Source of the DNA: Escherichia coli
GTDB lineage: Bacteria; Pseudomonadota; Gammaproteobacteria; Enterobacterales; Enterobacteriaceae
NCBI RefSeq assembly: GCF_002854065.1
Contig: NZ_CP024147.1
Strand: one strand, 5' to 3'
DNA: 64,000 nucleotides
Part shown: in pieces, positions 3,469 through 63,286 of the stretch
How positions within the stretch are numbered: the first letter of the stretch is position 1
How the letters are laid out: every line of letters begins with the position of its first letter
Program-made: the position numbers and the translations under genes
Notes under the pieces: generated by a model
Database searches by the model: none
What the model was told of the DNA's origin: nothing
What the model saw: the letters and a program-made list of their open reading frames with translations, nothing else

Positions 3469-3632
3469 GCCTTATCTCCACCTCTTCGCGTCATTACGCG
3501 ATATTCATTAAAGTGGCGAAAGCATGCAGCAATCACAAAAAAATGAAAATAACAAAAAGAGAAAACACTTTTGCCATTTTGCTAACAAACAGGAAGGAGA
3601 TGCGAGGGAGAACGCGCTCCCTCGAGAGGAAA

Positions 3633-3722
3633 TCAGTGCAGCGCGGCAGTCAAACCCACGGCTACGATCAAACCGAGGACGATAATCGTTGTTACCAGTG
3701 AAAATTTAAGGTCGGTGCTCAT
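3633..3722 (-). CDS. ynhF: 29-aa single-helix small membrane protein
   Basis: Hand translation of the minus strand: ATG (complement 3720-3722) ... MSTDLKFSLVTTIIVLGLIVAVGLTAALH, stop at 3633-3635; AAGGAG Shine-Dalgarno 8 nt upstream. Too short for the ORF track. Confidence 0.7.
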   Translation of the reverse strand: MSTDLKFSLVTTIIVLGLIVAVGLTAALH

Positions 3723-3960
3723 CAAGTTTTCTCCTTTTTTATTACCACACAAAAAGTGATATTACGCATTTTTACACACTGTGATGAAAAAATCTCCCGT
3801 CATTTATAATGATAAGTGTTTTTACCACTTCCCCTTTTCGTCAAGATCGGCCAAAATTCCACGCTTACACTATTTGCGTACTGGCCATTGACCCCTTCCT
3901 GACGCTCCGTGTCGTTTTTCCGGCGTACCGCAACACTTTTGTTGTGCGTAAGGTGTGTAA

Positions 3961-3976
3961 AGGCAAACGTTTACCT
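3961..3976. promoter_or_regulatory. PurR operator O1 (PUR box) in the purR leader
   Basis: AGGCAAACGTTTACCT fits the PUR-box consensus ACGCAAACGTTTTCNT; 45 bp upstream of the purR start. Confidence 0.7.
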
Positions 3977-4020
3977 TGCGATTTTGCAGGAGCTGAAGTT
4001 AGGGTCTGGAGTGAAATGGA

Positions 4021-5046
4021 ATGGCAACAATAAAAGATGTAGCGAAACGAGCAAACGTTTCCACTACAACTGTGTCACACGTGATCAACAAAACACGTTT
4101 CGTCGCTGAAGAAACGCGCAACGCCGTGTGGGCAGCGATTAAAGAATTACACTACTCCCCTAGCGCGGTGGCGCGTAGCCTGAAGGTTAACCACACCAAG
4201 TCTATCGGTTTGCTGGCGACCAGCAGCGAAGCGGCCTATTTTGCCGAGATCATTGAAGCAGTTGAAAAAAATTGCTTCCAGAAAGGTTACACCCTGATTC
4301 TGGGCAATGCGTGGAATAATCTTGAGAAACAGCGGGCTTATCTGTCGATGATGGCGCAAAAACGCGTCGATGGTCTGCTGGTAATGTGTTCTGAGTACCC
4401 AGAGCCGTTGCTGGCGATGCTGGAAGAGTATCGCCATATCCCAATGGTGGTGATGGACTGGGGTGAAGCAAAAGCTGACTTCACCGATGCGGTCATTGAT
4501 AACGCGTTCGAAGGCGGCTACATGGCCGGGCGTTATCTGATAGAACGCGGCCATCGCGAAATCGGCGTTATCCCCGGCCCGCTGGAACGTAACACCGGCG
4601 CAGGCCGCCTTGCCGGTTTTATGAAGGCGATGGAAGAAGCGATGATCAAGGTGCCGGAAAGCTGGATTGTGCAGGGTGATTTTGAACCTGAATCCGGTTA
4701 TCGCGCCATGCAGCAAATCCTGTCGCAGCCGCATCGCCCTACTGCCGTCTTCTGTGGTGGCGATATCATGGCAATGGGCGCACTTTGTGCTGCTGATGAA
4801 ATGGGGCTGCGCGTCCCGCAGGATGTTTCGCTGATCGGTTATGATAACGTGCGCAACGCCCGCTATTTTACGCCGGCGCTGACCACGATCCATCAGCCAA
4901 AAGACTCGCTGGGTGAAACAGCGTTCAACATGCTGTTGGATCGTATCGTCAACAAACGTGAAGAACCGCAGTCCATTGAAGTGCATCCGCGCTTGATTGA
5001 ACGCCGCTCCGTGGCTGACGGCCCGTTCCGCGACTATCGTCGTTAA
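4021..5046 (+). CDS. purR: Purine repressor, LacI family
   Basis: 341-aa [39 protein letters not shown]... with LacI-type HTH. Confidence 0.97.
4049..4064. promoter_or_regulatory. PurR operator O2 inside the purR coding region
   Basis: GAGCAAACGTTTCCAC carries the GCAAACGTTT core, 88 bp downstream of O1, matching the known two-operator autoregulation layout. Confidence 0.6.
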
Positions 5047-12611: not shown

Positions 12612-12688
12612 GCGTTCATAGCTCAGTTGGTTAGAGCACCACCTTGACATGGTGGGGGTCGTTGGTTCGAGTCCAATTGAACGCACCA
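12612..12688 (+). tRNA. valV: tRNA-Val (anticodon GAC)
   Basis: 77-nt cloverleaf: acceptor GCGTTCA/TGAACGC, D-arm GCTCAGTTGGTTAGAGC, anticodon loop CTTGACATGG, T-arm GGTTCGAGTCC, 3' CCA. Confidence 0.95.
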
Positions 12689-12692
12689 TCCT

Positions 12693-12769
12693 GCGTCCGT
12701 AGCTCAGTTGGTTAGAGCACCACCTTGACATGGTGGGGGTCGGTGGTTCGAGTCCACTCGGACGCACCA
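12693..12769 (+). tRNA. valW: tRNA-Val (anticodon GAC), second copy
   Basis: 77-nt cloverleaf identical in core to valV but with acceptor stem GCGTCCG/CGGACGC; 4-nt spacer between the copies. Confidence 0.95.
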
Positions 12770-12800
12770 GATTTTCTTAATCTGGTCTTCTCCTTTTTCC
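12766..12800 (+). terminator. Intrinsic terminator after valW
   Basis: Stem ACCAGAT / ATCTGGT followed by CTTCTCCTTTTTCCC. Confidence 0.6.
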
Positions 12801-12876
12801 CTCTGCTTCTTCTCTGTATCCAATACGTTAAAAGATTTACACTGTCTTCGTATGCGTTATCAGAAGGAGAATCGCT

Positions 12877-13182
12877 ATGGCAACTTTGTTACAACTTCAT
12901 TTTGCTTTTAATGGCCCATTTGGCGACGCAATGGCTGAGCAGCTTAAACCACTTGCTGAGTCGATTAATCAGGAACCTGGTTTTCTGTGGAAGGTATGGA
13001 CAGAAAGTGAAAAGAACCACGAAGCCGGCGGGATCTACCTTTTCACTGATGAAAAAAGCGCCCTTGCCTATCTGGAAAAACACACTGCCCGACTGAAAAA
13101 TCTCGGCGTTGAGGAAGTTGTCGCCAAAGTTTTCGATGTCAATGAGCCACTGAGTCAAATCAATCAGGCAAAACTCGCCTGA
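12877..13182 (+). CDS. ydhR: Small conserved protein of unknown function
   Basis: 101-aa ORF with RBS GAAGGAG 6 nt before the ATG; position after the tRNA-Val pair. Confidence 0.8.
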
Positions 13183-15739: not shown

Positions 15740-16525
15740 TTAGTGCCGGTGATAGCCATCGACCATGCTTTTAAAGGTTTCGTGTGGCGTACGCCCCGTG
15801 GTGCAAAGATAAAGATGACCGAAGATAAAAAAGAGGCTTATAAATGCCAGAGCAAAATGCGCCTGCAATAACCAGTATCTTACGCCAGGAAACACATCTC
15901 CCACGGCTTGCGGATAGAGACACAGCAGCCCCGTCAATAGTAACAACGGCAGCAATCCATACATGACACCAACATAGGCAACCTGCTGTAAGGGATTAAA
16001 TTTAGACTGGGTTGTTGCCGGGAAAGGATGTTCTTCCCCCTGCATAATGCCAAACAAATAAAATCGCGTTTGTTTTGCCGCCCGCTCCAGCCAACCCTGA
16101 CGACGAATGCGATAGTGGTGGCCATTACCCCCAACGGCATTGATCAGAACAAAGCCGTGCCAGCATGCCAGTAACAAAAATCCGCAAACTTCATGCACCG
16201 CAACCAGACTTTTAACCGCAGTTGCGCCCACCAGCGCAAAGTGATTTATCAGCCCACTTGCCAGCAACAATACAAAGAGTAACGCATTCGACCAGTGCCA
16301 TAATCTGACCGCTTTGCTGTAAAGATAAATCTTCTCACCATGATCGGTGGCTGATTTCTTCACGCCACGAGCACGAAGCAAGGCGTGCAGCCCCAGCACC
16401 AACCACATCCCAACCAGCAATACTCCGGCAATGATCAACCACACCGGCCAAAATTCGGGAGTGAACTGTGGCACATAGTTCGCTAACTGGCTCTGAAACT
16501 GTTCAGCATGTTGCGACGGGTTCAT
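15740..16525 (-). CDS. ydhU: PhsC/NrfD-like integral membrane cytochrome b-type subunit
   Basis: 261-aa polytopic ORF with conserved His in helices; 4-nt overlap with ydhX. Confidence 0.8.
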   Translation of the reverse strand: MNPSQHAEQFQSQLANYVPQFTPEFWPVWLIIAGVLLVGMWLVLGLHALLRARGVKKSATDHGEKIYLYSKAVRLWHWSNALLFVLLLASGLINHFALVGATAVKSLVAVHEVCGFLLLACWHGFVLINAVGGNGHHYRIRRQGWLERAAKQTRFYLFGIMQGEEHPFPATTQSKFNPLQQVAYVGVMYGLLPLLLLTGLLCLYPQAVGDVFPGVRYWLLQAHFALAFISLFFIFGHLYLCTTGRTPHETFKSMVDGYHRH

Positions 16526-20512: not shown

Positions 20513-20567
20513 GGTGATGCTGCCAACTTACTGATTTAGTGTATGATGGTGTTTTTGAGGTGCTCCA

Positions 20568-20843
20568 GTGGCTTCTGTTTCTATCAGCTGTCCCTCCTGT
20601 TCAGCTACTGACGGGGTGGTGCGTAACGGCAAAAGCACTGCCGGACATCAGCGCTATCTCTGCTCTCACTGCCGTAAAACATGGCAACTGCAGTTCACTT
20701 ACACCGCTTCTCAACCCGGTACGCACCAGAAAATCATTGATATGGCCATGAATGGCGTTGGATGCCGGGCAACCGCCCGCATTATGGGCGTTGGCCTCAA
20801 CACGATTTTCCGCCATTTAAAAAACTCAGGCCGCAGTCGGTAA
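20568..20843 (+). CDS. insA: IS1 InsA (transposition repressor / N-terminal part of InsAB' transposase)
   Basis: 91-aa [46 protein letters not shown]... with zinc-finger-like Cys pairs. Confidence 0.95.
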
Positions 20844-21265
20844 CCTCGCGCATACAGCCGGGCAGTGACGTCATCGTCTGCGCGGAAATGGACGAACAGT
20901 GGGGATACGTCGGGGCTAAATCGCGCCAGCGCTGGCTGTTTTACGCGTATGACAGGCTCCGGAAGACGGTTGTTGCGCACGTATTCGGTGAACGCACTAT
21001 GGCGACGCTGGGGCGTCTTATGAGCCTGCTGTCACCCTTTGACGTGGTGATATGGATGACGGATGGCTGGCCGCTGTATGAATCCCGCCTGAAGGGAAAG
21101 CTGCACGTAATCAGCAAGCGATATACGCAGCGAATTGAGCGGCATAACCTGAATCTGAGGCAGCACCTGGCACGGCTGGGACGGAAGTCGCTGTCGTTCT
21201 CAAAATCGGTGGAGCTGCATGACAAAGTCATCGGGCATTATCTGAACATAAAACACTATCAATAA
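20762..21265 (+). CDS. insB: IS1 InsB (catalytic part of InsAB' transposase, made by -1 frameshift)
   Basis: 167-aa [19 protein letters not shown]...HYLNIKHYQ in the -1 frame relative to insA. Confidence 0.95.
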
Positions 21266-21280
21266 GTTGGAGTCATTACC

Positions 21281-21885: not shown

Positions 21886-22095
21886 TCATTTTACCAGTGC
21901 GTTAATGACGGTTTCCATCGCCTGCTTTTCCAGCTCACTGCGCTGAATGCGTTTATTGGCTAATGCTGTACGTAATACGCCTGCGATAACAATATGCTTT
22001 GGTTCCTGCCCCAGATCGCGCATTTCCAGCACAACTTTACCGACAACTCTGCACATTTCTCGGTACAGTTCATCCTCTTTTGTCCGATTTCCCAT
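21886..22095 (-). CDS. fumD: Small fumarase D
   Basis: 69-aa ORF MGNRTKEDELYREMCRVVGKVVLEMRDLGQEPKHIVIAGVLRTALANKR...; position between ydhY and pykF. Confidence 0.8.
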   Translation of the reverse strand: MGNRTKEDELYREMCRVVGKVVLEMRDLGQEPKHIVIAGVLRTALANKRIQRSELEKQAMETVINALVK

Positions 22096-25826: not shown

Positions 25827-26243
25827 TTAGCTAAGTGCAGCGGCTTTGGCGCGAATTGCGCGAATCATCGCTTCCAGACCTTGTGAACGAGATGGGGTGA
25901 GATGTTGGGTGAGCGCCATTTTTTCAAACCACGGACGCACATCGAAATTGACAATATCCTGCGGCATCATCTGATCGTAGAGAATAAAGACGACCGCAAT
26001 AAGCCCTTTCACAATCGCCGCATCGCTGTCGCCCTGCAATTCAATAATTCCCTGCGCATTCTGGCGCATGACAATCCACACCTGACTCTGGCAGCCCTGA
26101 ATGCTATTTTGTGGGCTTCTGTCTTCGTCGCGTAATTCTGGCAGACGCTGGCCCAGCTCAATAATGTAGAGATATTTCTCTTCCCAGTTGGCGCAGCGTA
26201 AAAAATTACGCAGCAATTTTTCTTTATCCGGCAATACAGCCAT
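25827..26243 (-). CDS. sufE: Cysteine desulfuration protein SufE
   Basis: 138-aa ORF, last gene of the co-directional suf cluster. Confidence 0.9.
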
Positions 26244-26255
26244 AGTGCCTCCCTG

Positions 26256-27476
26256 TTATCCCAGCAGACGGTGAATACGTTGTAATCCGGTCACCAGACG
26301 ATCCACTTCTTCATGGGTGTTATACATGGCCAGCGACGCCCGACACATCGCAGGGACGTTGTAATAGGCCATTAATGGCATAGCGCAGTGATGTCCGGTA
26401 CGCACAGCAATGCCGTAATTATCGAGAAAACTGCCAACATCATAGGCGTGGTGTTTACCGAGATTAAAAGCAATAACGCCAAGCCTGTTTTGTGGGCCAT
26501 AGAGAGTGAGATCCGGTACAGATTCCAGCTGTGATAGCGCGTAATGCATCAGATTCTGTTCATACTCGGCTATGTTATTAAGCCCCAGCGCCGAAACATA
26601 CTCCAGCGCCGCGCCAAGACCAATGATGCCCCCGGTATTGGGTGTACCGGCTTCAAACCGCCATGGTGCTTTGGTCCAGGTAGTGCCTTCACTCAGGCTG
26701 ACGGTGGCGATCATAGAACCGCCCCCTTCCCACGGCGGCATCTCCTGCAACAAGGCTTCTTTCACATAAAGAATGCCAATTCCGGTGGGGCCATACAGTT
26801 TATGCCCGGAGAACACGTAAAAGTCGCAATCCAGCGCCTGAACATCCACCGGATGATGCATCACCGCCTGAGCGCCATCCACCAGCACTTTTGCGCCATG
26901 CTGGTGCGCAAGCGTGATCATTTCCGCCAGTGGATTTTCTGTGCCAAGCACGTTGGAGACATGAGTAATTGCCAGCAGGCGAGTTTTCTCATCAAACAGC
27001 GTAGGCAGCGTCTCCAGTTGCAACGTACCGTCGGGATTGAGCGGGATCACACGCAGCTCTGCGCCAACGCGTGCGCAAAGCATCTGCCAGGGAACAATGT
27101 TAGCGTGGTGCTCCATCTGACTTATGATGATGTTATCGCCCGCCCGCACGTTGCTGTTGCCCCAGCTATTGGCGACCAGATTGATCCCTTCCGTCGTGCC
27201 GCGGACGAACACCAGCTCTTCTGCCGAACGGGCATTAATCAACAGCGATGCCCGCTTGCGCACGTTCTCCATTTTCTCGGTCGCCTGGGCGCTTAAGGTA
27301 TGAATACCACGATGCACCGCCGCGTAGCCATGACGATAAAACTCGGCCTCGGCGTCAATCACCTGGCTCGGTTTCTGCGCACTGGCGGCGCTGTCGAGAT
27401 AAGCCAGCGGCAAACCGTTTACCTCACGCGAAAGCACCGGAAAGTCGGCCCGCACTTTGTCGACGGAAAAAGTCAT
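26256..27476 (-). CDS. sufS: Cysteine desulfurase SufS (PLP-dependent)
   Basis: 406-aa ORF with class-V aminotransferase features ([13 protein letters not shown], active-site Cys in RTGHHCA). Confidence 0.93.
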
Positions 27477-28744
27477 CTTGCACCTCCTGGCAGCCGTTGA
27501 CCGATTCGGGCCAGCACCTGCTGTTTAAGCCCCTCATCACGCAGTGCTTCCGTCAGTTCGGCAGCAAAGGCGTAAATGATCATCTGCTGGGCATCCTGCT
27601 GATTGATCCCGCGCGAGCGCAGATAGAACATCTGTTCATCATCAATACGCCCCACCGTCGCGCCGTGGCTGCATTTCACATCATCTGCATAGATTTCCAG
27701 CTGCGGTTTCGTATCCACTTCCGCCAGTTTGCCCATCAGCAGATTATTGTTGGTCATCTGACCATCCGTTTTGATGGCGTGCTGCGCGACGTTGATCAAA
27801 CCGTTAAATACCGCGCGGCCTTTGTCGCTGACGATAGTTTTGTGCAACTGTCGGCTGTTACAAAAACCTTTATTGTGTTCCAGCCAGGTACGGGTATCAC
27901 ACACCTCGTTTTTCACCGGCATCGCCAGGCTATTGATCCGCAACATGCTGTTTTCGCCATTGAGTTGCGTACTGGTGTTGTGTCGTAACACTGCGCCACC
28001 CAGCAGGAAACTGTGGCTAAATGCGGTGGCATCGTCAGCCAGCAACAAATCGTTATGGGCAAAGTGGTGACTGAGCGGGTTTTCAAACGCCAGCTTGATA
28101 TGCTGCAAGTGGGCATTCGCTGCGACGTTGATAGTGAACCGTGCCCCGGTAAAATGACGAGCATCATTAAGGCTGACAAAATGTTCGATCACCGTTGCTT
28201 CGGCACCTTCCGCCAGATCCAGATGATGTCGGTAATGGGCAGTGTTCACCTCTTCACCTGCCACGCCCTGGGTGATATGCATTAACAGCAATGGCTTTGC
28301 CGGCCGTTGACCGCGCTTCACGGCGATATGCGTCACGCTTTGTGCCAGGCTTTCCGTCAAATGCAGAAACACTTCCGCCTGAATAGCGTCGGGTAACCCC
28401 TGACGGTCGTCGTTAATGCTCACTTCATATCCGCTGCCTTCAGTTGCATCGCTCAGCGCAGGCACGTAACGTCCATCGACAAACACCAGCCGCACGGCGT
28501 CTAACGTTAACGCTAAGGCATCACGCTGCTGTGGGGATATCTCCCCCGCAATGCTGACAAACTGGCTATTGGTCAGCCCTTCCAGCGGCGTATATTTCCA
28601 GTTTTCATGTTTACGTGTCGGCAGTCCGGTACGCAGCAATTGTTGTAAATGCTGTTGTGCTTGCGGGGAACGTTTCACCCCTTCAGCTTCAAACAAATGA
28701 TGCCACTGTTGCAGTGCGTTACTGCTGTTCGGTAAGCCAGCCAT
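27473..28744 (-). CDS. sufD: Fe-S cluster assembly protein SufD
   Basis: 423-aa ORF; 4-nt overlap with sufS and 26-nt overlap with sufC. Confidence 0.9.
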
Positions 28745-29465
28745 AACCCTGCTCCTCCAGTTGTTTGACCAACGTGAAATCGCCGGATTTCACAATTCGT
28801 CCCTGATATAGCACATGGACGTAATCAGGCTTGATGTAGTCGAGAATGCGTTGGTAGTGCGTAACAATGATGAATGAGCGCTTGCCGTCACGCAGCGAGT
28901 TCACGCCATCGGCAACCACTTTTAATGCGTCAATATCCAGCCCGGAGTCCGATTCATCAAGAATGCATAACCCCGGTTCCAGCACCGCCATTTGCAGAAT
29001 ATCGTTGCGCTTTTTCTCGCCGCCGGAAAAGCCAACGTTTACCGAACGGGTTAATAAATCTTCCGGCATCTTCAGGAGAGCGATTTTCTCTTCCATCAAA
29101 TCCTGAAAATCAAAGCGGTCGAGCGTTTCCTGGCCGCGATAGCTGCGCACCGCATTAAGTGCCGTTTGCAGGAAAAACTGGTTACTGACACCTGGAATCT
29201 CCACCGGATACTGGAAGGCCATAAAGATGCCTTCGCCTGCACGATCTTCCGGCGACAGTGCAAGCAAATCTTTGCCTTTGAACTCAACCGTGCCGCCCGT
29301 CACTTCATAATCTTCTCGCCCGGCAAGCGTTGCCGATAAGGTACTTTTGCCCGAACCGTTTGGCCCCATAATGGCGTGAACTTCGCCGGGACGAACGTCG
29401 AGGCTTAATCCACGCAGGATAGTTTTATCTTCCACGCTGACGTGTAAATCTTTAATACTTAACAT
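28719..29465 (-). CDS. sufC: Fe-S cluster assembly ATPase SufC
   Basis: 248-aa ORF with Walker A GPNGSGKST and ABC signature. Confidence 0.95.
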   Translation of the reverse strand: MLSIKDLHVSVEDKTILRGLSLDVRPGEVHAIMGPNGSGKSTLSATLAGREDYEVTGGTVEFKGKDLLALSPEDRAGEGIFMAFQYPVEIPGVSNQFFLQTALNAVRSYRGQETLDRFDFQDLMEEKIALLKMPEDLLTRSVNVGFSGGEKKRNDILQMAVLEPGLCILDESDSGLDIDALKVVADGVNSLRDGKRSFIIVTHYQRILDYIKPDYVHVLYQGRIVKSGDFTLVKQLEEQGYGWLTEQQ

Positions 29466-29474
29466 GTTTATTCC

Positions 29475-30962
29475 TTATCCGACGCTGTGTTCAAGACTGA
29501 TGGCGAGGAGTTTTTGTGCTTCAACGGCAAATTCCAGCGGCAGTTCTGAGAACACGTCTTTGCAGAAACCGTTAACAATCATCGAGATGGCGTCTTCTTC
29601 GCTGATCCCGCGTTGCAGGCAGTAAAACAGTTGATCTTCACCAATACGTGATGTCGTTGCCTCGTGCTCCAGTTGTGCGCTGTTATTGCGACATTCGACA
29701 TACGGGAAGGTATGCGCCCCACAATTAGCGCCAATCAGCATTGAGTCGCACTGAGTGAAATTGCGCGCATTGGTTGCCGTCGGCATGATTTTCACTAAGC
29801 CGCGATAACTGTTCTGACTATGTCCGGCAGAGATCCCTTTCGAGATAATGGTCGATTTGGTGTTTTTACCGATGTGGATCATCTTGGTGCCGGTATCAGC
29901 TTGCTGATGACCGCTGGTCAGCGCCACTGAGTAAAACTCACCAATGGAGTTATCGCCGCGCAAAATGCAGCTGGGATATTTCCACGTAATCGCTGACCCG
30001 GTTTCTGATTGCGTCCATGACATTTTGCTGTTTTTGCCTTCGCACAAAGCACGCTTGGTGACGAAGTTGAGAATACCGCCGGTGTTGTTATCGCCAGGGA
30101 ACCAGTTTTGTACCGTGGAATATTTCACCTCGGCGTTTTTATGGATGATGACTTCCACCACTGCCGCGTGCAACTGATAGCTGTCACGCACCGGAGCGGA
30201 ACAGCCTTCAATGTAGCTGACGTAGCTGTCTTCGTCGGCCACCAGAATGGTGCGCTCAAACTGCCCGGTTTTTTCCGCGTTAATGCGAAAATAGGTGGAA
30301 AGTTCCATCGGGCAGCGCACGCCTTTAGGCACATAAATAAACGTACCGTCAGAGGCTACCGCCGCATTAAGCGCGGCAAAGAAGTTGTCATTCCCCGGCA
30401 CCACGGTGCCGAGATATTTACGCACCAGTTCCGGGTGATCGTGGATCGCCTCACCAAAGGAACAGAAAATAATTCCCTGCTCCGCCAGTTTTTCGCGATA
30501 AGTAGTGGCAACCGAAACTGAGTCGAAAATGGCATCCACCGCCACCTCTTTGCCTTCCCGCACGGGAACGCCCAACTGCTCAAACGCCGCCTCCACCTCT
30601 TTACTTAAAAAGGCGTTCGCGCCAGTTTGCTGCACCGCGCCAGGTTCAGACGCGCAAGTGTCGTCACAATTACCGCACGATGGTGCTGAGTAGTAGCTGT
30701 AATCCTGATAATTCAGCTTGTCGTAGTGCGCTTTCAACCAGTGCGGTTCTTCCATCTCCAGCCATGCGCGATAGGCGTTTAGACGAAACTCCAGCATCCA
30801 CTCCGGCTCATTACGCTTCGCCGAAATTGCGCGCACCACCTCTTCGTTTATCCCCTTTGCCAGCTCATCGGTGGCTAACTGGGTGAAGAATCCTTCTTTA
30901 TAATTCAGCGGGCCGCCGGTCCAGGTTTTGACATCATCAGTTGCTTCAGTATTACGAGACAT
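29475..30962 (-). CDS. sufB: Fe-S cluster scaffold SufB
   Basis: 495 aa from [24 protein letters not shown]...; the ORF-track start at 31001 adds 13 residues that overlap the sufA 3' end. Confidence 0.93.
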
Positions 30963-30970
30963 AGTACCGC

Positions 30971-31339
30971 CTATACCCCAAAGCTTTCGCCACAGCCACA
31001 TTCATTCTGGGCTTTAGGGTTGTGAAATTTGAATATCTGATTAAGTCCTTCACGAACGAAATCGACTTCCGTGCCATCAATAAACGGCATCGCTTGCAGC
31101 GGGACAAACAGCTTCGCGCCGTCGTGTTCAAACAGCAGATCGTCTTTGTCCGGCTCGCTAACACTGTCGAGCACATAGCCAAAGCCCGCGCAGCCCGTTT
31201 GCTTCACACCTAAGCGCACGCCGACCATACCTGGCTGCTTTGCCACCAGCTCGCGGATGTGGACAGCGGCTGCGGGTGTCAGCGTTAAGCCTTGCCAGGC
31301 GAAATCCTGTGGATTAAAGGTTCCTGAATGCATGTCCAT
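30971..31339 (-). CDS. sufA: Fe-S cluster A-type carrier SufA
   Basis: 122-aa ORF with C-terminal CGCGESF motif; first gene of the sufABCDSE operon. Confidence 0.93.
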
Positions 31340-31621: not shown

Positions 31622-31690
31622 AATAAGAAAACCCTTAAGTCTGTGCGACACAGGCTTAAGGGTTTCTACCCCATCCGGCGCTTATCTCCG
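31622..31690 (-). ncRNA. rydB: Probable small RNA RydB
   Basis: Minus-strand 17-bp hairpin (31629-31665, one A-C mismatch) followed by UUUUCUUAUUU, at the sufA-ydiH position where RydB is annotated in K-12; the 5' end is estimated. Confidence 0.4.
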
Positions 31691-31887
31691 GCACTCTCAG
31701 TGGCTTAGCTCTTGAAGGGGCGATAAGAATAATCTCATAAAGCTAACCCGCCGTTTTAACACAAACTGCGATTAGTATTATTTTTGAACAATATCAGGCG
31801 GGTAGATAAGCAGTATTAAGAAGGTCATCGAACCTGGACGGAGGTTAATCCAGGTCGATTTGGCGAACTTGCGGCATTAAGTCAGGA

Positions 31888-32175: not shown

Positions 32176-32586
32176 TCACAAAATGGCGGTCGTCAATCGT
32201 GACGAACAGCACAAACGCCCTTTCTCATCGAAGATTTCAATCTGCCAGACCTGGTGACGCGAACCGAGATGCAACGGTTTGCATACGCCGCGCACCCGCC
32301 CTTCTCGTGCCGAGCGGACATGGTTAGCATTGATTTCCAGACCAACCACTTTTTGCTCACCTTCGGTACATAAATAACCGGCAACGGAACCGATACTTTC
32401 GGCCAGTACCACGGATGCACCTCCATGTAGCAACCCGAAAAGCTGCTTTGTCCGCGAGTCTACTGGCATTGTCGCTTCAAGGGTGTCATCACCAATATGT
32501 TCAAAGCGAATATCCAGTAACCCCACCATGTTTCCTTCACCCATGGCATTCAGTGCTTCCAGGGTGATTTTTCGTTTCCATATCAT
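32176..32586 (-). CDS. menI: Hotdog-fold 1,4-dihydroxy-2-naphthoyl-CoA thioesterase
   Basis: 136-aa ORF with PaaI/YdiI-type motif HGGASVVLAESIGS. Confidence 0.85.
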   Translation of the reverse strand: MIWKRKITLEALNAMGEGNMVGLLDIRFEHIGDDTLEATMPVDSRTKQLFGLLHGGASVVLAESIGSVAGYLCTEGEQKVVGLEINANHVRSAREGRVRGVCKPLHLGSRHQVWQIEIFDEKGRLCCSSRLTTAIL

Positions 32587-37325: not shown

Positions 37326-37430
37326 ACGGTTATAAATCAACATATTGATTTATAAGCATGGAAATCCCCTGAGTGAAACAACGAATTGCTGTGTGTAGTC
37401 TTTGCCCATCTCCCACGATGGGCTTTTTTT
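37326..37430 (+). ncRNA. rprA: RprA small regulatory RNA
   Basis: Sequence ACGGTTATAAATCAACATATTGATTTATAAGCATGGAAATCCCCTGAGTGAAACAACGAATTGCTGTGTGTAGTCTTTGCCCATCTCCCACGATGGGCTTTTTTT matches RprA as I recall it, including the terminator hairpin and U-tail. Confidence 0.88.
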
Positions 37431-37568
37431 TAACATTTTTCCGCTTCGCTACCTCGCCCCTCACTCTTTCCAATAATGTTGCACAAGATACTGTGACTCT
37501 CTTCAAGCCGTCAGCAGGCTGATAATGTTATTTATATTTTATTGTTTATTTCATGCAGCCATTACACG

Positions 37569-48351: not shown

Positions 48352-49641
48352 ATGTCGGATGACAAATTTGATGCCATTGTGGTCGGTGCGGGCGTTGCTG
48401 GTAGCGTTGCCGCACTGGTCATGGCACGAGCCGGGCTGGATGTCCTGGTGATAGAACGCGGCGACAGTGCCGGATGTAAAAACATGACCGGCGGGCGTCT
48501 TTATGCCCACACACTTGAAGAGATTATTCCAGGCTTTGCAGCATCAGCGCCGGTAGAACGCAAGGTCACACGCGAGAAAATCTCCTTCTTAACCGAAGAG
48601 AGCGCCGTTACCCTCGATTTTCACCGCGAGCAACCAGATGTTCCGCAACACGCATCTTATACCGTATTGCGTAATCGTCTGGACCCGTGGTTGATGGAAC
48701 ATGCCGAGCAGGCGGGCGCACAGTTTATCCCGGGAGTTCGCGTCGATGCGCTGGTTCGTGAAGGAAACAAGGTCACTGGCGTCCAGGCTGGGGATGATAT
48801 TCTCGAAGCGAATGTGGTGATTCTGGCTGATGGCGTTAACTCGATGCTTGGCCGTTCGCTGGGAATGGTTCCCGCTTCCGATCCGCATCATTACGCTGTT
48901 GGTGTTAAAGAGGTTATTGGCCTCACACCAGAACAGATCAACGATCGCTTTAATATTACGGGCGAGGAAGGTGCCGCCTGGCTGTTTGCCGGTTCCCCTT
49001 CTGACGGCCTGATGGGTGGCGGATTCCTCTATACCAATAAGGATTCCATATCGTTGGGGCTGGTTTGTGGATTGGGTGATATCGCCCATGCGCAAAAAAG
49101 CGTGCCGCAAATGCTGGAAGATTTTAAACAACACCCCGCCATTCGCCCGCTGATTAGCGGCGGCAAGTTGCTTGAATATTCCGCGCATATGGTGCCGGAA
49201 GGCGGTCTGGCAATGGTGCCGCAACTGGTTAACGAGGGCGTGATGATCGTTGGTGACGCCGCAGGCTTCTGCCTGAATTTGGGTTTTACGGTCCGCGGCA
49301 TGGATTTAGCCATTGCATCGGCTCAGGCTGCCGCCACAACGGTGATCGCCGCCAAAGAACGCGCGGATTTCTCCGCCAGCAGTCTTGCGCAATACAAACG
49401 TGAGCTGGAACAAAGTTGTGTTATGCGCGATATGCAGCATTTTCGCAAGATCCCGACGCTGATGGAAAATCCGCGCCTGTTTAGTCAGTATCCGCGCATG
49501 GTCGCCGACATCATGAACGATATGTTCACCATTGACGGCAAACCAAACCAGCCGGTACGCAAAATGATCATGGGACACGCGAAGAAAATTGGGCTGATCA
49601 ACTTGCTGAAAGATGGCATTAAGGGAGCAACCGCGCTATGA
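48352..49641 (+). CDS. ydiS: ETF:quinone oxidoreductase-like FAD flavoprotein (FixC-like)
   Basis: 429-aa ORF with N-terminal GxGxxG (VVGAGVAGSVAA). Confidence 0.85.
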   Translation: MSDDKFDAIVVGAGVAGSVAALVMARAGLDVLVIERGDSAGCKNMTGGRLYAHTLEEIIPGFAASAPVERKVTREKISFLTEESAVTLDFHREQPDVPQHASYTVLRNRLDPWLMEHAEQAGAQFIPGVRVDALVREGNKVTGVQAGDDILEANVVILADGVNSMLGRSLGMVPASDPHHYAVGVKEVIGLTPEQINDRFNITGEEGAAWLFAGSPSDGLMGGGFLYTNKDSISLGLVCGLGDIAHAQKSVPQMLEDFKQHPAIRPLISGGKLLEYSAHMVPEGGLAMVPQLVNEGVMIVGDAAGFCLNLGFTVRGMDLAIASAQAAATTVIAAKERADFSASSLAQYKRELEQSCVMRDMQHFRKIPTLMENPRLFSQYPRMVADIMNDMFTIDGKPNQPVRKMIMGHAKKIGLINLLKDGIKGATAL

Positions 49642-49931
49642 GCCAGAACGCTACGGTTAACGTCGACATCAAATTAGGCGTCAATAAATTCCATGTTGAT
49701 GAGGGCCACCCGCATATCATTTTGGCGGCAAATCCCGATATCAATGAATTCCGTAAATTAATGAAAGCCTGCCCTGCCGGACTTTATAAGCAGGATGATG
49801 CCGGCAACATTCATTTTGATTCCGCCGGTTGTCTGGAGTGCGGCACCTGTCGGGTGCTGTGCGGTAACACTATTCTCGAACAGTGGCAATATCCCGCAGG
49901 CACCTTCGGTATTGATTTTCGCTACGGCTAA
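49638..49931 (+). CDS. ydiT: Ferredoxin-like protein (FixX-like)
   Basis: 97-aa ORF with Cys cluster CPAGLY...CLECGTCRVLC; 4-nt overlap with ydiS. Confidence 0.85.
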   Translation: MSQNATVNVDIKLGVNKFHVDEGHPHIILAANPDINEFRKLMKACPAGLYKQDDAGNIHFDSAGCLECGTCRVLCGNTILEQWQYPAGTFGIDFRYG

Positions 49932-51253
49932 TCATGCATCCCACAGGCCCGCATCTCGGGCCTGATGTTCTGTTTCGAGAGTCCAAAATGAAAGTGACAT
50001 TAACGTTTAACGAACAACGTCGTGCGGCGTATCGTCAGCAAGGGCTATGGGGCGATGCTTCGCTGGCCGATTACTGGCAGCAGACCGCTCGTGCGATGCC
50101 AGACAAAATTGCCGTGGTCGATAATCATGGAGCATCGTACACCTATAGCGCGCTCGATCACGCCGCGAGCTGTCTGGCAAACTGGATGTTAGCGAAGGGT
50201 ATTGAATCAGGCGATCGCATCGCATTTCAACTGCCAGGCTGGTGTGAATTTACCGTTATCTATCTTGCCTGCCTGAAAATCGGTGCGGTTTCCGTACCGC
50301 TGTTGCCTTCCTGGCGGGAAGCAGAACTGGTATGGGTGCTTAATAAGTGTCAGGCAAAAATGTTCTTTGCACCGACGTTGTTTAAACAAACGCGTCCGGT
50401 AGATTTAATCCTGCCGCTGCAAAATCAGCTTCCACAACTACAACAAATTGTCGGCGTGGACAAACTGGCTCCCGCCACCTCTTCCCTCTCATTAAGTCAG
50501 ATTATCGCCGACAATACCCCACTGACCACGGCGATAACGACCCACGGCGATGAATTAGCCGCGGTGCTGTTTACCTCCGGAACCGAGGGCCTGCCAAAGG
50601 GCGTGATGCTTACGCATAACAATATTCTCGCCAGTGAGCGGGCTTATTGCGCGCGGCTGAATCTGACCTGGCAGGATGTCTTTATGATGCCTGCGCCACT
50701 CGGCCACGCAACGGGCTTTCTGCATGGCGTAACAGCACCATTTTTGATTGGTGCTCGCAGCGTGTTGTTAGATATTTTCACTCCTGATGCGTGTCTCGCG
50801 CTGCTTGAGCAGCAGCGTTGCACCTGTATGCTCGGCGCAACGCCGTTTGTCTATGATCTTTTGAATTTACTAGAGAAACAACCCGCAGACCTTTCAGCGC
50901 TGCGCTTCTTTCTTTGCGGCGGTACCACAATCCCCAAAAAAGTGGCGCGTGAATGCCAGCAGCGCGGCATTAAATTATTAAGTGTTTATGGTTCCACAGA
51001 AAGTTCGCCGCATGCGGTGGTGAATCTCGATGATCCTTTGTCGCGCTTTATGCACACCGATGGTTACGCTGCCGCAGGTGTAGAGATTAAAGTGGTCGAT
51101 GACGCACGCAAGACCTTACCGCCAGGTTGCGAAGGTGAAGAAGCCTCGCGTGGCCCCAATGTGTTTATGGGGTATTTTGATGAACCTGAATTAACCGCCC
51201 GAGCCCTGGATGAAGAAGGCTGGTATTACAGCGGCGATCTCTGCCGTATGGAT

Positions 51254-51262: not shown

Positions 51263-51317
51263 GGTGATGCTGCCAACTTACTGATTTAGTGTATGATGGT
51301 GTTTTTGAGGTGCTCCA

Positions 51318-51593
51318 GTGGCTTCTGTTTCTATCAGCTGTCCCTCCTGTTCAGCTACTGACGGGGTGGTGCGTAACGGCAAAAGCACTGCCGGACATCA
51401 GCGCTATCTCTGCTCTCACTGCCGTAAAACATGGCAACTGCAGTTCACTTACACCGCTTCTCAACCCGGTACGCACCAGAAAATCATTGATATGGCCATG
51501 AATGGCGTTGGATGCCGGGCAACCGCCCGCATTATGGGCGTTGGCCTCAACACGATTTTCCGCCATTTAAAAAACTCAGGCCGCAGTCGGTAA
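51318..51593 (+). CDS. insA: IS1 InsA
   Basis: 91-aa ORF identical to the copy A InsA. Confidence 0.95.
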
Positions 51594-52015
51594 CCTCGCG
51601 CATACAGCCGGGCAGTGACGTCATCGTCTGCGCGGAAATGGACGAACAGTGGGGATACGTCGGGGCTAAATCGCGCCAGCGCTGGCTGTTTTACGCGTAT
51701 GACAGGCTCCGGAAGACGGTTGTTGCGCACGTATTCGGTGAACGCACTATGGCGACGCTGGGGCGTCTTATGAGCCTGCTGTCACCCTTTGACGTGGTGA
51801 TATGGATGACGGATGGCTGGCCGCTGTATGAATCCCGCCTGAAGGGAAAGCTGCACGTAATCAGCAAGCGATATACGCAGCGAATTGAGCGGCATAACCT
51901 GAATCTGAGGCAGCACCTGGCACGGCTGGGACGGAAGTCGCTGTCGTTCTCAAAATCGGTGGAGCTGCATGACAAAGTCATCGGGCATTATCTGAACATA
52001 AAACACTATCAATAA
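51512..52015 (+). CDS. insB: IS1 InsB
   Basis: 167-aa ORF identical to the copy A InsB. Confidence 0.95.
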
Positions 52016-52030
52016 GTTGGAGTCATTACC

Positions 52031-60542: not shown

Positions 60543-61292
60543 TCAGATGGTCGAAATCAGCATTCTGTGACCTTCGATATCCAGACGGCGAAAATTCATC
60601 CCATAGGCCTGCGCCAGATTTGGCGGCGTGAGCACCTCTTCTCTGCGTCCACTGGCCAGCATTTTTCCACCTTTTAGCAACCACGCCCGATGCGCATGAC
60701 GCAATGTGTGGTTGAGATCGTGACTGCTCATCACAATCGCCAGTCCTTGCTGACACAGCGCGCTCAGAATTTTGTCTAACGCACTTTGTTGCGCAACATC
60801 AAGACTGTTCATCGGCTCATCAAGAAGCAGCAATTGGCCTGCGGGATTGGCTTGTGGTGTGATTTGCAGCACCACCGCAGCAAGACGTACGCGTTGCCAT
60901 TCACCGCCGGAAAGTTGATTGGTGCTACGTCCGAGTTTGTCATCAAGAGCCAGCGCCCCTGCGACATCATTCAGTAGTTCGGTACGCGTTTTATCGTGCT
61001 GATGCAGTGTCAGGTAGTGCCAGACCGGCATTGCAAACGGCGGCGTCTGCTGTTGTGAAAGATAGGCGCGATGCAGCGCGAGTTTTGTTGCGGACCATGC
61101 TTCCAGTGGTTGCCCCGCGAACTGAATGCTTCCCTTACCGCTGGTCATTCCGGCCATTCGCGCCAGTAAGGTACTCTTACCCGCGCCATTCGGCCCCACC
61201 AGGTGCAGGATCTCCCCAGCCCGAACCTCGCCAGAAAGCGGCCCCAGGCGGGTAGATTCCGCAACATCCTGTAACTGCATCACAATAGACAT
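60543..61292 (-). CDS. btuD: Vitamin B12 ABC importer ATPase
   Basis: 249-aa ORF with Walker [10 protein letters not shown] and LSGGEWQR signature. Confidence 0.93.
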
Positions 61293-61843
61293 TATTTTGC
61301 CAACGCCAGTTTAATGCTTTCCATCACAATGGGATCTTCCGGCGTCATATCCGGGGAAAAACGCTGGATGACCAATCCGTCCCTGCCAACTAAAAATTTC
61401 TCAAAATTCCATAAAATATCATCAGGGTACAGCGGTGCACGACCTTTGCTGACCATACGGGCATAGAATCCGCTCTCTTCCGGCGCGACTGCGGTCGGCG
61501 CTGCGGCAATCAATTTTTGATACAGCGGATGGCGTCCTTCGCCATTAACTTCAATCTTACTGAACATCGGGAACGTCACCCCCCATGTGGTGGTACAGTA
61601 AGTTTTAATCTCTTCATCGCTGCCCGGTTCTTGTTCCAGAAACTGGTTGCACGGGAATCCCAGCACCACAAAACCTCGATCGGCCCAGGCTTTCTGAATA
61701 TTCTCCAACTGCTCATATTGCGGCGTTAAGCCACACTTTGAGGCGACATTGACAATCAACAGCACATTACCGGCGTACTTCTCCAGCGTGGTCACTTCAC
61801 CGTCGATATCTTTCACTACGGTCGTCAGAATGGAATCTTGCAT
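61292..61843 (-). CDS. btuE: Glutathione-peroxidase homologue
   Basis: 183-aa ORF with GPx motifs ([17 protein letters not shown]); 1-nt overlap with btuD. Confidence 0.92.
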
Positions 61844-62886: not shown

Positions 62887-62945
62887 GGTATCCGTTCTGC
62901 TGAAGTGTCATGGCGTTGATTTTACGGTGACTCTTCGACAGTGAA

Positions 62946-62975
62946 AAGAAAAAAGGCCGCAGAGCGGCCTTTTTA
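62946..62975. terminator. Bidirectional intrinsic terminator downstream of ihfA
   Basis: Stem GGCCGC / GCGGCC flanked by an A-run upstream and T-run downstream. Confidence 0.6.
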
Positions 62976-62986
62976 GTTAGATCAGA

Positions 62987-63286
62987 TTACTCGTCTTTGG
63001 GCGAAGCGTTTTCGACCCGGCTTTTTAACTTCTGCCCGGGTCTGAAGGTCACCACGCGCCGTGCTGTAATGGGAATATCCTCGCCCGTTTTCGGGTTACG
63101 TCCCGGGCGTTGATTCTTATCACGCAGATCGAAGTTACCAAAACCAGAGAGTTTCACCTGTTCGCCGTTTTCCAGAGCGCGACGGATCTCTTCGAAAAAC
63201 AGTTCAACCAGTTCTTTGGCATCCCGCTTGCTAAGCCCAAGCTTATCAAACAGATATTCTGACATTTCAGCTTTTGTAAGCGCCAT
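62987..63286 (-). CDS. ihfA: Integration host factor alpha subunit
   Basis: 99-aa [55 protein letters not shown]... Confidence 0.97.

What the first reader, a model, noticed from the sequence alone, without database searches (positions are those of the whole stretch)
27473..28744. Overlapping start/stop codons across suf and neighbouring operons
sufS/sufD overlap by 4 nt and sufD/sufC by 26 nt; the same ATGA-type 4-nt overlaps occur at ydhU/ydhX, ydiS/ydiT and menI/ydiJ, and btuD/btuE share 1 nt. This is the usual signature of translational coupling, not anything novel.
Basis: seen in the sequence. Interest (0 to 1): 0.12.

Follow-up and report, generated by a model that had tools for sequence, protein, structure and literature searches.

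The report
Ordinary start/stop overlaps in E. coli operons
The six gene overlaps are real but are the standard, already catalogued junctions of E. coli operons; only the 26-base sufC/sufD overlap is slightly unusual, because its start signal is built into conserved sufC codons in all enteric bacteria examined.

Summary
The window is an E. coli chromosome segment (grxD to ihfA). Coordinates 27473-28744 (minus strand) are the sufD gene. All six claimed overlaps are present exactly as described:
- sufD>sufS, ATGA
- sufC>sufD, 26 nt
- ydhX>ydhU, ATGA
- ydiJ>menI, ATGA
- ydiS>ydiT, ATGA
- btuE>btuD, TAATG

The same distances are listed for K-12 in a published table (Huber 2023). The window is not enriched for tight junctions: 6 of 38 co-directional pairs lie within -8..+6, against 24% genome-wide.

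The five short overlaps fit the usual termination-reinitiation signature. The -26 junction does not. Published measurements put re-initiation near zero at about -25, and Huber 2023 treated only -8..+10 as predictive.

Across 80 sufC loci, -26 is fixed in 37 of 38 Enterobacterales and is -26/-23 in two Vibrio. Elsewhere the junction is -4, -1 or a short spacer. The sufD ATG lies in the SufC Tyr-Gly codons and its GGAGGAG in Leu-Glu-Glu codons. The synonymous sites there are frozen.

So sufD most likely starts from a hard-wired internal ribosome-binding site. Coupling itself was not tested. Verdict: confirmed, ordinary, already known.

The parts
27473..28744 (-). sufD coding sequence (423 aa); these are the coordinates of the finding
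   Evidence: 100% identical to the annotated sufD of NZ_CP182139.1. Intact ATG...TGA ORF. Pfam SUFBD_core, E = 4e-75. Matches residues 1-423 of the PDB SufD chains 2zu0/5awf.
27473..27476 (-). ATGA: sufD stop (TGA) overlapping the sufS start (ATG), -4 junction
   Evidence: Sequence read directly. -4 in 27 and -1 in 7 of 37 Enterobacterales loci.
27483..27488 (-). AGGAGG Shine-Dalgarno sequence for sufS, inside the sufD 3' end
   Evidence: Duplex with the anti-SD of -11.1 to -11.6 kcal/mol, 6 nt from the ATG.
28719..28744 (-). 26-nt sufC/sufD overlap: the sufD ATG through the sufC TAA
   Evidence: -26 in 37 of 38 Enterobacterales species, and -26/-23 in 2 Vibrio. Present in 5,416 of 5,426 complete E. 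coli genomes. The synonymous sites of TAT GGC TGG CTT are invariant in 37 species.
28752..28758 (-). GGAGGAG Shine-Dalgarno sequence for sufD, embedded in the sufC Leu-Glu-Glu codons
   Evidence: -9.3 kcal/mol. GGAGG core kept in 33 of 38 loci and GAGG in all. Third-position entropy of the first GAG codon is 0.
28719..29465 (-). sufC coding sequence (248 aa), the upstream partner
   Evidence: Pfam ABC_tran.
26256..27476 (-). sufS coding sequence (406 aa), the downstream partner
   Evidence: Pfam Aminotran_5, E = 8e-160.
16522..16525 (-). ATGA: ydhX stop / ydhU (phsC) start
   Evidence: Weak SD AAGGA, -5.6 kcal/mol. Listed as -4 in the K-12 table.
32583..32586 (-). ATGA: ydiJ stop / menI start
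   Evidence: SD GGAGA, -6.4 kcal/mol. The junction is -4 or -1 in most relatives with synteny and +14 to +51 in some.
49638..49641 (+). ATGA: ydiS stop / ydiT start
   Evidence: SD AAGGGAG, -7.6 kcal/mol.
61290..61294 (-). TAATG: btuE stop / btuD start sharing one base (61292)
   Evidence: No SD (-1.5 kcal/mol). An alternative ATG lies 12 nt downstream.

Best explanation
These are genuine, ordinary operon junctions of the E. coli chromosome.

Five of them place the downstream start on the upstream stop: sufD>sufS, ydhX>ydhU, ydiJ>menI and ydiS>ydiT at -4, and btuE>btuD at -1. A ribosome finishing the upstream gene can therefore restart on the spot (termination-reinitiation). It is helped by a Shine-Dalgarno sequence inside the upstream gene where one exists: strong for sufS; moderate for ydiT and menI; weak for ydhU; absent for btuD.

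The sufC>sufD junction is different. The sufD ATG lies 26 nt before the sufC stop, inside the codons for the conserved SufC Tyr-Gly of the GYGWL motif. Its GGAGGAG lies in the Leu-Glu-Glu codons. This arrangement is fixed throughout the Enterobacterales sampled and in two Vibrio.

Most likely, sufD is translated mainly by fresh 30S binding at this hard-wired internal site. At most it gets modest help from ribosomes passing through sufC. This allows SufD output to differ from SufC output, as the SufBC2D complex needs.

What is shown: the geometry, the SD strengths, the conservation and the frozen synonymous sites. What is inferred: coupling at the short overlaps (by analogy with tested pairs) and de novo initiation at sufD (from published distance-dependence measurements).
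For: Geometry and annotation:
- The geometry is confirmed, and the annotated starts are the first possible in-frame starts.
- The same distances are listed in the K-12 table of Huber 2023.

Published background for the short overlaps:
- -4 and -1 are the commonest classes.
- Four of five native E. coli overlapping pairs tested were coupled, using only positions -99..+30.
- Reinitiation needs overlaps or very short gaps.

Conservation of the suf junctions:
- sufC>sufD is -26 in 37 of 38 Enterobacterales, and -17 in one reduced symbiont where only the sufC stop moved.
- It is -26/-23 in 2 Vibrio.
- In 40 more distant loci it is -4, -1, +1, +4 or a short spacer.
- sufD>sufS stays at -4 or -1 in 34 of 37 Enterobacterales, whereas sufB>sufC and sufS>sufE spacers drift from +9 to +200.

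Selection on the sufD start site:
- The wobble sites of the SufC codons Tyr, Gly and Leu in the overlap, and of the SD-core GAG, have zero entropy in 37 species.
- 15 of 16 equally conserved upstream codons vary by 0.2-1.9 bits (Fisher P = 0.004).
- Downstream of the overlap, codons 9-17 of sufD evolve by synonymous change, and the only nearby alternative start (TTG17) is CTG in many species.

Why -26 is a separate case:
- The re-initiation coefficient is 0.022 at -4 and 0.0072 at 0..+25. It falls by 0.0004 per nt beyond -10. Overlaps of 25 nt or more are advised to prevent re-initiation (summarised).
- Salmonella Ribo-seq reports that SufB/C/D stoichiometric production is set at the level of translation.
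Against: - No experiment on any of these six junctions was found. Coupling is therefore an inference.
- One of five tested E. coli overlaps (bioBF) was not coupled.
- btuD has no SD. BtuE appears roughly ten-fold more abundant by mass fraction than BtuD, as I read the Mori 2021 tables. If coupling occurs there, it is inefficient or the start is elsewhere.
- The ydiJ>menI junction flips between -4, -1 and +14..+51 among relatives. Exact geometry is therefore not strongly held.
- For sufC/sufD, the E. coli junction RNA folds better than shuffles (z = -2.9). That leaves room for coupling by ribosome-assisted unfolding.
- The Tian & Salis numbers come from synthetic reporters, not from suf.
Confidence: 0.8

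Rival explanations
1. All six junctions, including sufC/sufD, work the same way. The ribosome that terminates on the upstream gene re-initiates on the downstream one, scanning back 23 nt in the sufC/sufD case. This is classical translational coupling.
For: - The overlaps are real.
- Scanning models allow movement in both directions after termination.
- SufC and SufD are subunits of one complex, and short-distance pairs are 4.5-fold enriched for complex subunits.
- sufC/sufD is flagged 'CMPLX yes' in the K-12 table.
Against: - Measured re-initiation falls with longer overlap and is about nil near -25.
- Huber 2023 restricts the predictive range to -8..+10.
- A strong, conserved SD (-9.3 kcal/mol) at canonical spacing suffices for independent initiation.
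- SufC:SufD is 2:1 in the complex, and in Salmonella the ratio is set at translation.
Confidence: 0.15
2. The overlaps are neutral by-products of genome compaction and of how easily ATGA arises: a start codon supplies three of the four bases. Downstream genes initiate independently and no coupling is selected for.
For: - The review argues that the abundance of -4 likely reflects ease of evolution.
- The menI and sufS junctions flip among -4, -1 and short spacers between genera.
- Most downstream genes have their own SD.
- bioBF is an uncoupled overlap.
Against: - Four of five tested native E. coli overlaps are coupled.
- sufD>sufS stays within -4/-1 in 34 of 37 Enterobacterales, while the neighbouring spacers sufB>sufC and sufS>sufE drift widely.
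- btuD has no SD, so it has no obvious independent route.
- The frozen synonymous sites at the sufD start show selection on that site.
Confidence: 0.2
3. The overlaps are annotation artefacts. The true start codons lie downstream, and re-annotation would remove the overlaps.
For: - btuD has a second ATG 12 nt downstream, and neither ATG has an SD.
- fadK shows that K-12 and PGAP starts can disagree in this region.
Against: - For sufS, sufD, ydhU, menI and ydiT, no downstream in-frame start has a comparable SD.
- The sufD ATG and its SD are invariant across 38 species, with frozen wobble sites.
- Protein-level conservation starts at residue 1 in tblastn for SufD and SufS across Enterobacterales.
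- PDB entries use the same N-termini. This shows only what was expressed, not the start used in vivo.
Confidence: 0.03

Closest known systems
Native E. coli overlapping pairs shown to be coupled by termination-reinitiation (hyfH-hyfI, astD-astB, ydbH-ynbE, menD-menH; Huber et al. 2019 and 2023)
   Same: Co-directional operon genes with ATGA or TGATG-type stop/start overlap. The downstream SD usually lies inside the upstream gene. Same organism.
   Different: None of the six junctions in this window was among the pairs tested. btuE>btuD lacks an SD. sufC>sufD lies outside the -8..+10 range considered predictive.
Synthetic bicistronic operons with long overlaps (d = -11 to -25; Tian & Salis 2015)
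   Same: The downstream start codon and SD are buried in the upstream coding sequence, 10-25 nt before its stop, as at sufC/sufD.
   Different: These were reporter genes with designed sequences. sufC/sufD is a natural junction conserved across a bacterial order, with dual-coding constraint.
sufC>sufB/D and sufD>sufS junctions across prokaryotes (COG0396@COG0719 and COG0719@COG0520 in the Huber 2023 supplementary table)
   Same: The same gene pairs. As I read the columns, the typical distance is tight: median +2.6 (range -4 to 18) for 1,139 pairs and median -1 (range -4 to 25) for 713 pairs. This matches the 40 non-enterobacterial loci examined here.
   Different: The Enterobacterales/Vibrio lineage departs from this with a fixed -26 (or -23/-17) arrangement.
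bioB-bioF of E. coli (an overlapping pair that is not coupled; Huber 2019)
   Same: An overlap with an independent SD-driven start. This is the likely behaviour of sufD.
   Different: bioBF has a short overlap, whereas sufC/sufD has 26 nt. No experiment exists for suf.

Membership tests
Stop/start-overlap junction of the termination-reinitiation (translational coupling) type | Two adjacent genes on the same strand with no room for a terminator or promoter between them | tested here: met
   All six pairs are co-directional and overlapping. That they share one transcript is known for K-12 but was not tested here.
Stop/start-overlap junction of the termination-reinitiation (translational coupling) type | Distance within the range that supports reinitiation (-8 to about +10 nt; typically ATGA or TAATG/TGATG) | tested here: met
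   Met for sufD>sufS, ydhX>ydhU, ydiJ>menI and ydiS>ydiT (ATGA) and for btuE>btuD (TAATG). The range is as defined.
Stop/start-overlap junction of the termination-reinitiation (translational coupling) type | Same distance criterion, applied to sufC>sufD | tested here: not met
   The distance is -26. This is outside -8..+10. Re-initiation was measured as near zero at about -25.
Stop/start-overlap junction of the termination-reinitiation (translational coupling) type | Shine-Dalgarno motif for the downstream gene inside the 3' end of the upstream gene (usual but not obligatory) | tested here: met
   Duplex energies in kcal/mol: sufS -11.1, sufD -9.3, ydiT -7.6, menI -6.4, ydhU -5.6. Not met for btuD (-1.5).
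Stop/start-overlap junction of the termination-reinitiation (translational coupling) type | Translation of the downstream gene depends on translation of the upstream gene (premature-stop test) | not testable with these tools
   Needs reporter assays. No published data were found for these pairs.
RNA-unfolding type of translational coupling | A stable, conserved secondary structure that hides the downstream SD/AUG and is opened by ribosomes on the upstream gene | tested here: inconclusive
   - The sufC/sufD junction of this window folds with z = -2.9, with the SD and AUG partly paired.
- Across 38 species the mean z is -0.7, and only 9 are below -1.5.
- Covariation is weak and the consensus energy is -6.6 kcal/mol.
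- The other five junctions have z between -1.3 and +2.5.
E. coli sufABCDSE operon (SUF Fe-S cluster assembly system) | Gene order sufA-B-C-D-S-E with the corresponding protein families | tested here: met
   RefSeq annotation transferred at 99.8-100% identity. Pfam SUFBD_core, ABC_tran and Aminotran_5. PDB SufD chains match residues 1-423.

The most novel reading that the evidence does not exclude
The 26-nt sufC/sufD overlap is not a coupling device. It is an ancient initiation site, shared by Enterobacterales and Vibrio, written into the conserved GYGWL and LEE codons of SufC. It uncouples or tunes SufD synthesis to about half that of SufC, matching SufBC2D. As a side effect, it fixes the first four residues of SufD (MAGL) and the wobble bases of SufC.
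Probability: 0.25. Interest if true: 0.3.

Novelty: already known. Interest (0 to 1): 0.1.

Why it matters
It matters little. The overlaps are part of the standard E. coli annotation and of published genome-wide tables, and they illustrate textbook operon organisation.

The one useful refinement is that overlap length matters. A reader or pipeline that treats every overlap as a coupling signature would misclassify junctions such as sufC/sufD, where the start site sits too far upstream of the stop for efficient re-initiation.

The sufC/sufD case is a clean natural example of dual-coding constraint: frozen synonymous sites across an order. It could serve as a test bed for how subunit ratios (SufC2:SufD1) are set within an operon.

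Tried and rejected
- **Experimental data on these junctions.** I looked for ribosome-profiling, proteome or kasugamycin data.
  - The Li 2014 paper is not held.
  - The Mori 2021 tables are cut before the 'suf' rows and gave only BtuE/BtuD.
  - The supplements of the kasugamycin and operon-structure papers hold none of these genes.
  - No open paper discusses the sufC/sufD overlap.
- **A conserved inhibitory RNA structure at sufC/sufD.** The E. coli fold looked promising. It is not conserved in stability and shows little covariation. I did not adopt it as the mechanism.
- **A programmed frameshift making a SufC-SufD fusion.** sufD is in the +1 frame relative to sufC. Reading the 26-nt overlap (TAT GGC TGG CTT ACC GAA CAG CAG TAA), I see no X XXY YYZ slippery heptamer and no prfB-like CUU-UGA context. 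Rejected by inspection only.
- **Alternative starts.** A longer sufB ORF starting at 31001, which would overlap sufA by 31 nt, has no SD (-0.1 against -6.3 kcal/mol for the annotated ATG at 30962). Rejected.
- **Long antisense ORFs opposite sufD/sufS.** The ORFs at 27248-27988 and 26544-27296 (+) have no Pfam match. I treat them as mechanical ORFs.

Full report
**What the region is.** The window is an Escherichia coli chromosome segment. A 4-kb piece around the finding matches 5,423 of 5,426 complete E. coli genomes, with sufE, sufS, sufD, sufC and sufB annotated under the match. I transferred the RefSeq/PGAP annotation of three near-identical genomes to the window by blastn. Every CDS was checked for start codon, stop codon and intactness. 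The window runs from grxD to ihfA. The coordinates of the finding, 27473-28744 on the minus strand, are exactly the sufD coding sequence. That sequence is 100% identical to an annotated sufD, has the Pfam SUFBD_core domain, and matches residues 1-423 of the SufD chains in the PDB.

All junctions below are written upstream>downstream.

| Junction | Sequence | Coordinates | Strand |
|---|---|---|---|
| sufD>sufS | ATGA | 27473-27476 | - |
| sufC>sufD | 26 nt, ATGGCTGGCTTACCGAACAGCAGTAA | 28719-28744 | - |
| ydhX>ydhU (phsC) | ATGA | 16522-16525 | - |
| ydiJ>menI | ATGA | 32583-32586 | - |
| ydiS>ydiT | ATGA | 49638-49641 | + |
| btuE>btuD | TAATG, sharing base 61292 | 61290-61294 | - |

In each case the annotated start is the first in-frame ATG/GTG/TTG after the upstream in-frame stop. 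No downstream alternative has a comparable Shine-Dalgarno sequence. The one soft case is btuD, which has no SD (-1.5 kcal/mol) and a second ATG 12 nt downstream.

**Is it more than chance?**
- Against base composition, yes. Five of the 17 TGA stops in the window are preceded by AT (P = 0.003 for p = 1/16), and four of these open the next gene.
- Against the E. coli background, no. Six of 38 co-directional pairs lie within -8..+6 nt (16%). In K-12 the figure is 707 of 2,987 (24%).
- The six distances are listed one by one for K-12 in the supplementary gene-pair table of Huber et al. 2023: ydhX-ydhU -4, sufD-sufS -4, sufC-sufD -26, ydiJ-menI -4, ydiS-ydiT -4, btuE-btuD -1.

**The five short overlaps.**
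- -4 and -1 are the most frequent junction classes in bacteria and archaea.
- Huber et al. found that four of five native overlapping E. coli pairs were tightly coupled, using only positions -99..+30. One pair, bioBF, was not coupled.
- Reinitiation falls steeply once a gap is introduced.
- The downstream genes here carry SD motifs inside the upstream gene of graded strength, in kcal/mol: sufS AGGAGG -11, ydiT -7.6, menI -6.4, ydhU -5.6, btuD none.
- By analogy, coupling by termination-reinitiation is the likely consequence. No experiment on these particular pairs was found.
- Output need not be equimolar. In the Mori 2021 proteome tables, as I read the columns, BtuE is roughly ten-fold above BtuD or BtuD is undetected.

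**Junction geometry among relatives.**
- sufD>sufS is -4 in 27 and -1 in 7 of 37 Enterobacterales loci.
- The neighbouring sufB>sufC and sufS>sufE spacers drift between +9 and +200.
- ydiJ>menI is -4 or -1 in most genera that keep synteny, and +14 to +51 in some.

**The 26-nt overlap is a different object.**
- *Published distance dependence.* The review by Brown & Wade and the original work of Tian & Salis report that re-initiation declines as overlap grows beyond about 10 nt. The coefficient is 0.022 at -4 and 0.0072 at 0..+25, and it falls by 0.0004 per nt beyond -10. Overlaps of 25 nt or more are recommended to prevent re-initiation. Huber 2023 treated only -8..+10 as predictive.
- *Conservation.* I fetched 80 loci encoding SufC relatives from one genome per species and located sufB, C, D, S and E in each. 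The sufD start lies at -26 in 37 of 38 Enterobacterales, from Escherichia to Photorhabdus and Arsenophonus. It is -17 in a reduced Pantoea symbiont where only the sufC stop moved. It is -26 and -23 in two Vibrio. In the 40 more distant loci the junction is -4, -1, +1, +4 or a short spacer. That agrees with the COG-pair medians in the Huber supplementary table. The junction itself is present in 5,416 of 5,426 complete E. coli genomes.
- *Where the signals sit.* The ATG is formed by the SufC codons Tyr-Gly (TAT GGC) of the conserved C-terminal GYGWL motif. The SD GGAGGAG is formed by the codons Leu-Glu-Glu.

**Evidence that this start site is under selection.**
- Across 37 Enterobacterales, the SufC codons TAT GGC TGG CTT are invariant at every position, including the wobble bases of Tyr, Gly and Leu. 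The SD-core GAG is also invariant.
- In contrast, 15 of 16 upstream codons with equally conserved amino acids vary at the third position by 0.2-1.9 bits (Fisher P = 0.004). The comparison uses the same species, so shared ancestry is controlled internally.
- Downstream of the overlap, sufD codons 9-17 change mostly synonymously. The only nearby alternative start (TTG17) is CTG in many species.
- The 26-nt overlap is therefore real and old. It fixes SufD residues 1-4 (MAGL).

**How sufD is most likely translated.** A strong SD (-9.3 kcal/mol) at canonical spacing, together with the published distance dependence, points to mainly de novo 30S binding at an internal site rather than a stop/start hand-over.

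I tested the alternative that ribosomes on sufC open an inhibitory structure:
- In this window the junction RNA folds better than shuffles (z = -2.9, none of 200 shuffles as stable), with the SD and AUG partly paired.
- Across 38 species the mean z is only -0.7.
- Covariation is weak.

That mechanism is therefore neither supported as conserved nor excluded for E. coli.

SufC and SufD occur 2:1 in the SufBC2D scaffold. A Salmonella ribosome-profiling preprint states that SufBCD stoichiometric production is set mainly at translation. That fits a junction that lets the two rates differ. This link is inference.

**Comparison with what is known, and verdict.**
- The five short overlaps meet the sequence-level criteria of the termination-reinitiation class. 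The functional criterion could not be tested.
- sufC/sufD fails the distance criterion. It resembles the long-overlap synthetic constructs of Tian & Salis, or an uncoupled overlap such as bioBF.
- Nothing here is new in kind. The overlaps are in the standard annotation and in a published table.
- The order-wide conservation and frozen wobble sites at sufC/sufD are a small refinement that I did not find described.
Its only imprecision is calling the 26-nt overlap the usual coupling signature.

Interest 0.1; novelty: already known.

Noticed in passing
window 20513-21280 and 51263-52030: There are two identical (768/768) IS1 copies in the same orientation. One interrupts ydhY and is flanked by TGTGCCGC. 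The other interrupts fadK and has the 9-bp duplication GAAGCTGGC. They bracket about 30 kb that includes pykF, lpp and the whole suf operon. Recombination between them could delete that segment. Related strains carry IS1 at other sites nearby: in ydhV, between ydiO and ydiP, and next to ydiF.
   Followed up: partly
window 5043-5046: purR (+) and punR (-) converge and share their stop codons as TTAA.
   Followed up: partly
window 26000-30000: The suf segment is at least 99% identical to only 79 of 5,423 E. coli genomes and 95-99% identical to the rest. SufD of the GTDB reference E. coli is 96% identical to the window's SufD, and E. albertii SufD is 97% identical. sufD appears to be a rather polymorphic gene or haplotype.
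   Followed up: no
window 3630-4020(-), 12612-12766(+), 12731-12893(-), 31661-31721(-), 37326-37433(+), 62887-63045(-): Rfam matches above gathering score, in coordinate order: STnc550 (overlapping cydH); two tRNA-Val; HPnc0260 (antisense to the tRNA region); rydB (between sufA and ydiH); RprA; and STnc540 (between btuC and ihfA).
   Followed up: no
window 61292-61843 (btuE) and 60543-61292 (btuD): In the supplementary proteome tables of Mori 2021, BtuE is about 1.5-2.5e-4 and BtuD about 2e-5 or zero. I read the columns as mass fractions. btuD has no Shine-Dalgarno sequence and a second ATG at codon 5. A 1-nt overlap does not give equal output here.
   Followed up: partly
window 49931-49988 (ydiT to fadK): The K-12 table gives ydiT>fadK a distance of +2, whereas the PGAP start used here gives +56. 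This is a start-codon annotation disagreement for fadK, which is in any case interrupted by IS1 in this window.
   Followed up: no
window 21886-21889 (fumD stop): fumD also ends in ATGA, but no annotated gene starts there. It is the fifth of the five ATGA stops in the window.
   Followed up: no
window 27248-27988(+) and 26544-27296(+): There are long ORFs of 246 and 250 aa antisense to sufD and sufS. Neither has a Pfam match. They are probably mechanical ORFs.
   Followed up: partly
L045, L046, L049 (Thiotrichales/Thiomicrorhabdus), about 4 nt after the sufC stop: In these loci the best sufD start candidate is a TTG at +4 behind a GGGAGAG motif (-7.8 to -8.2 kcal/mol). L046 also has an ATG at -35 with a strong SD. 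The start choice there is unresolved.
   Followed up: no
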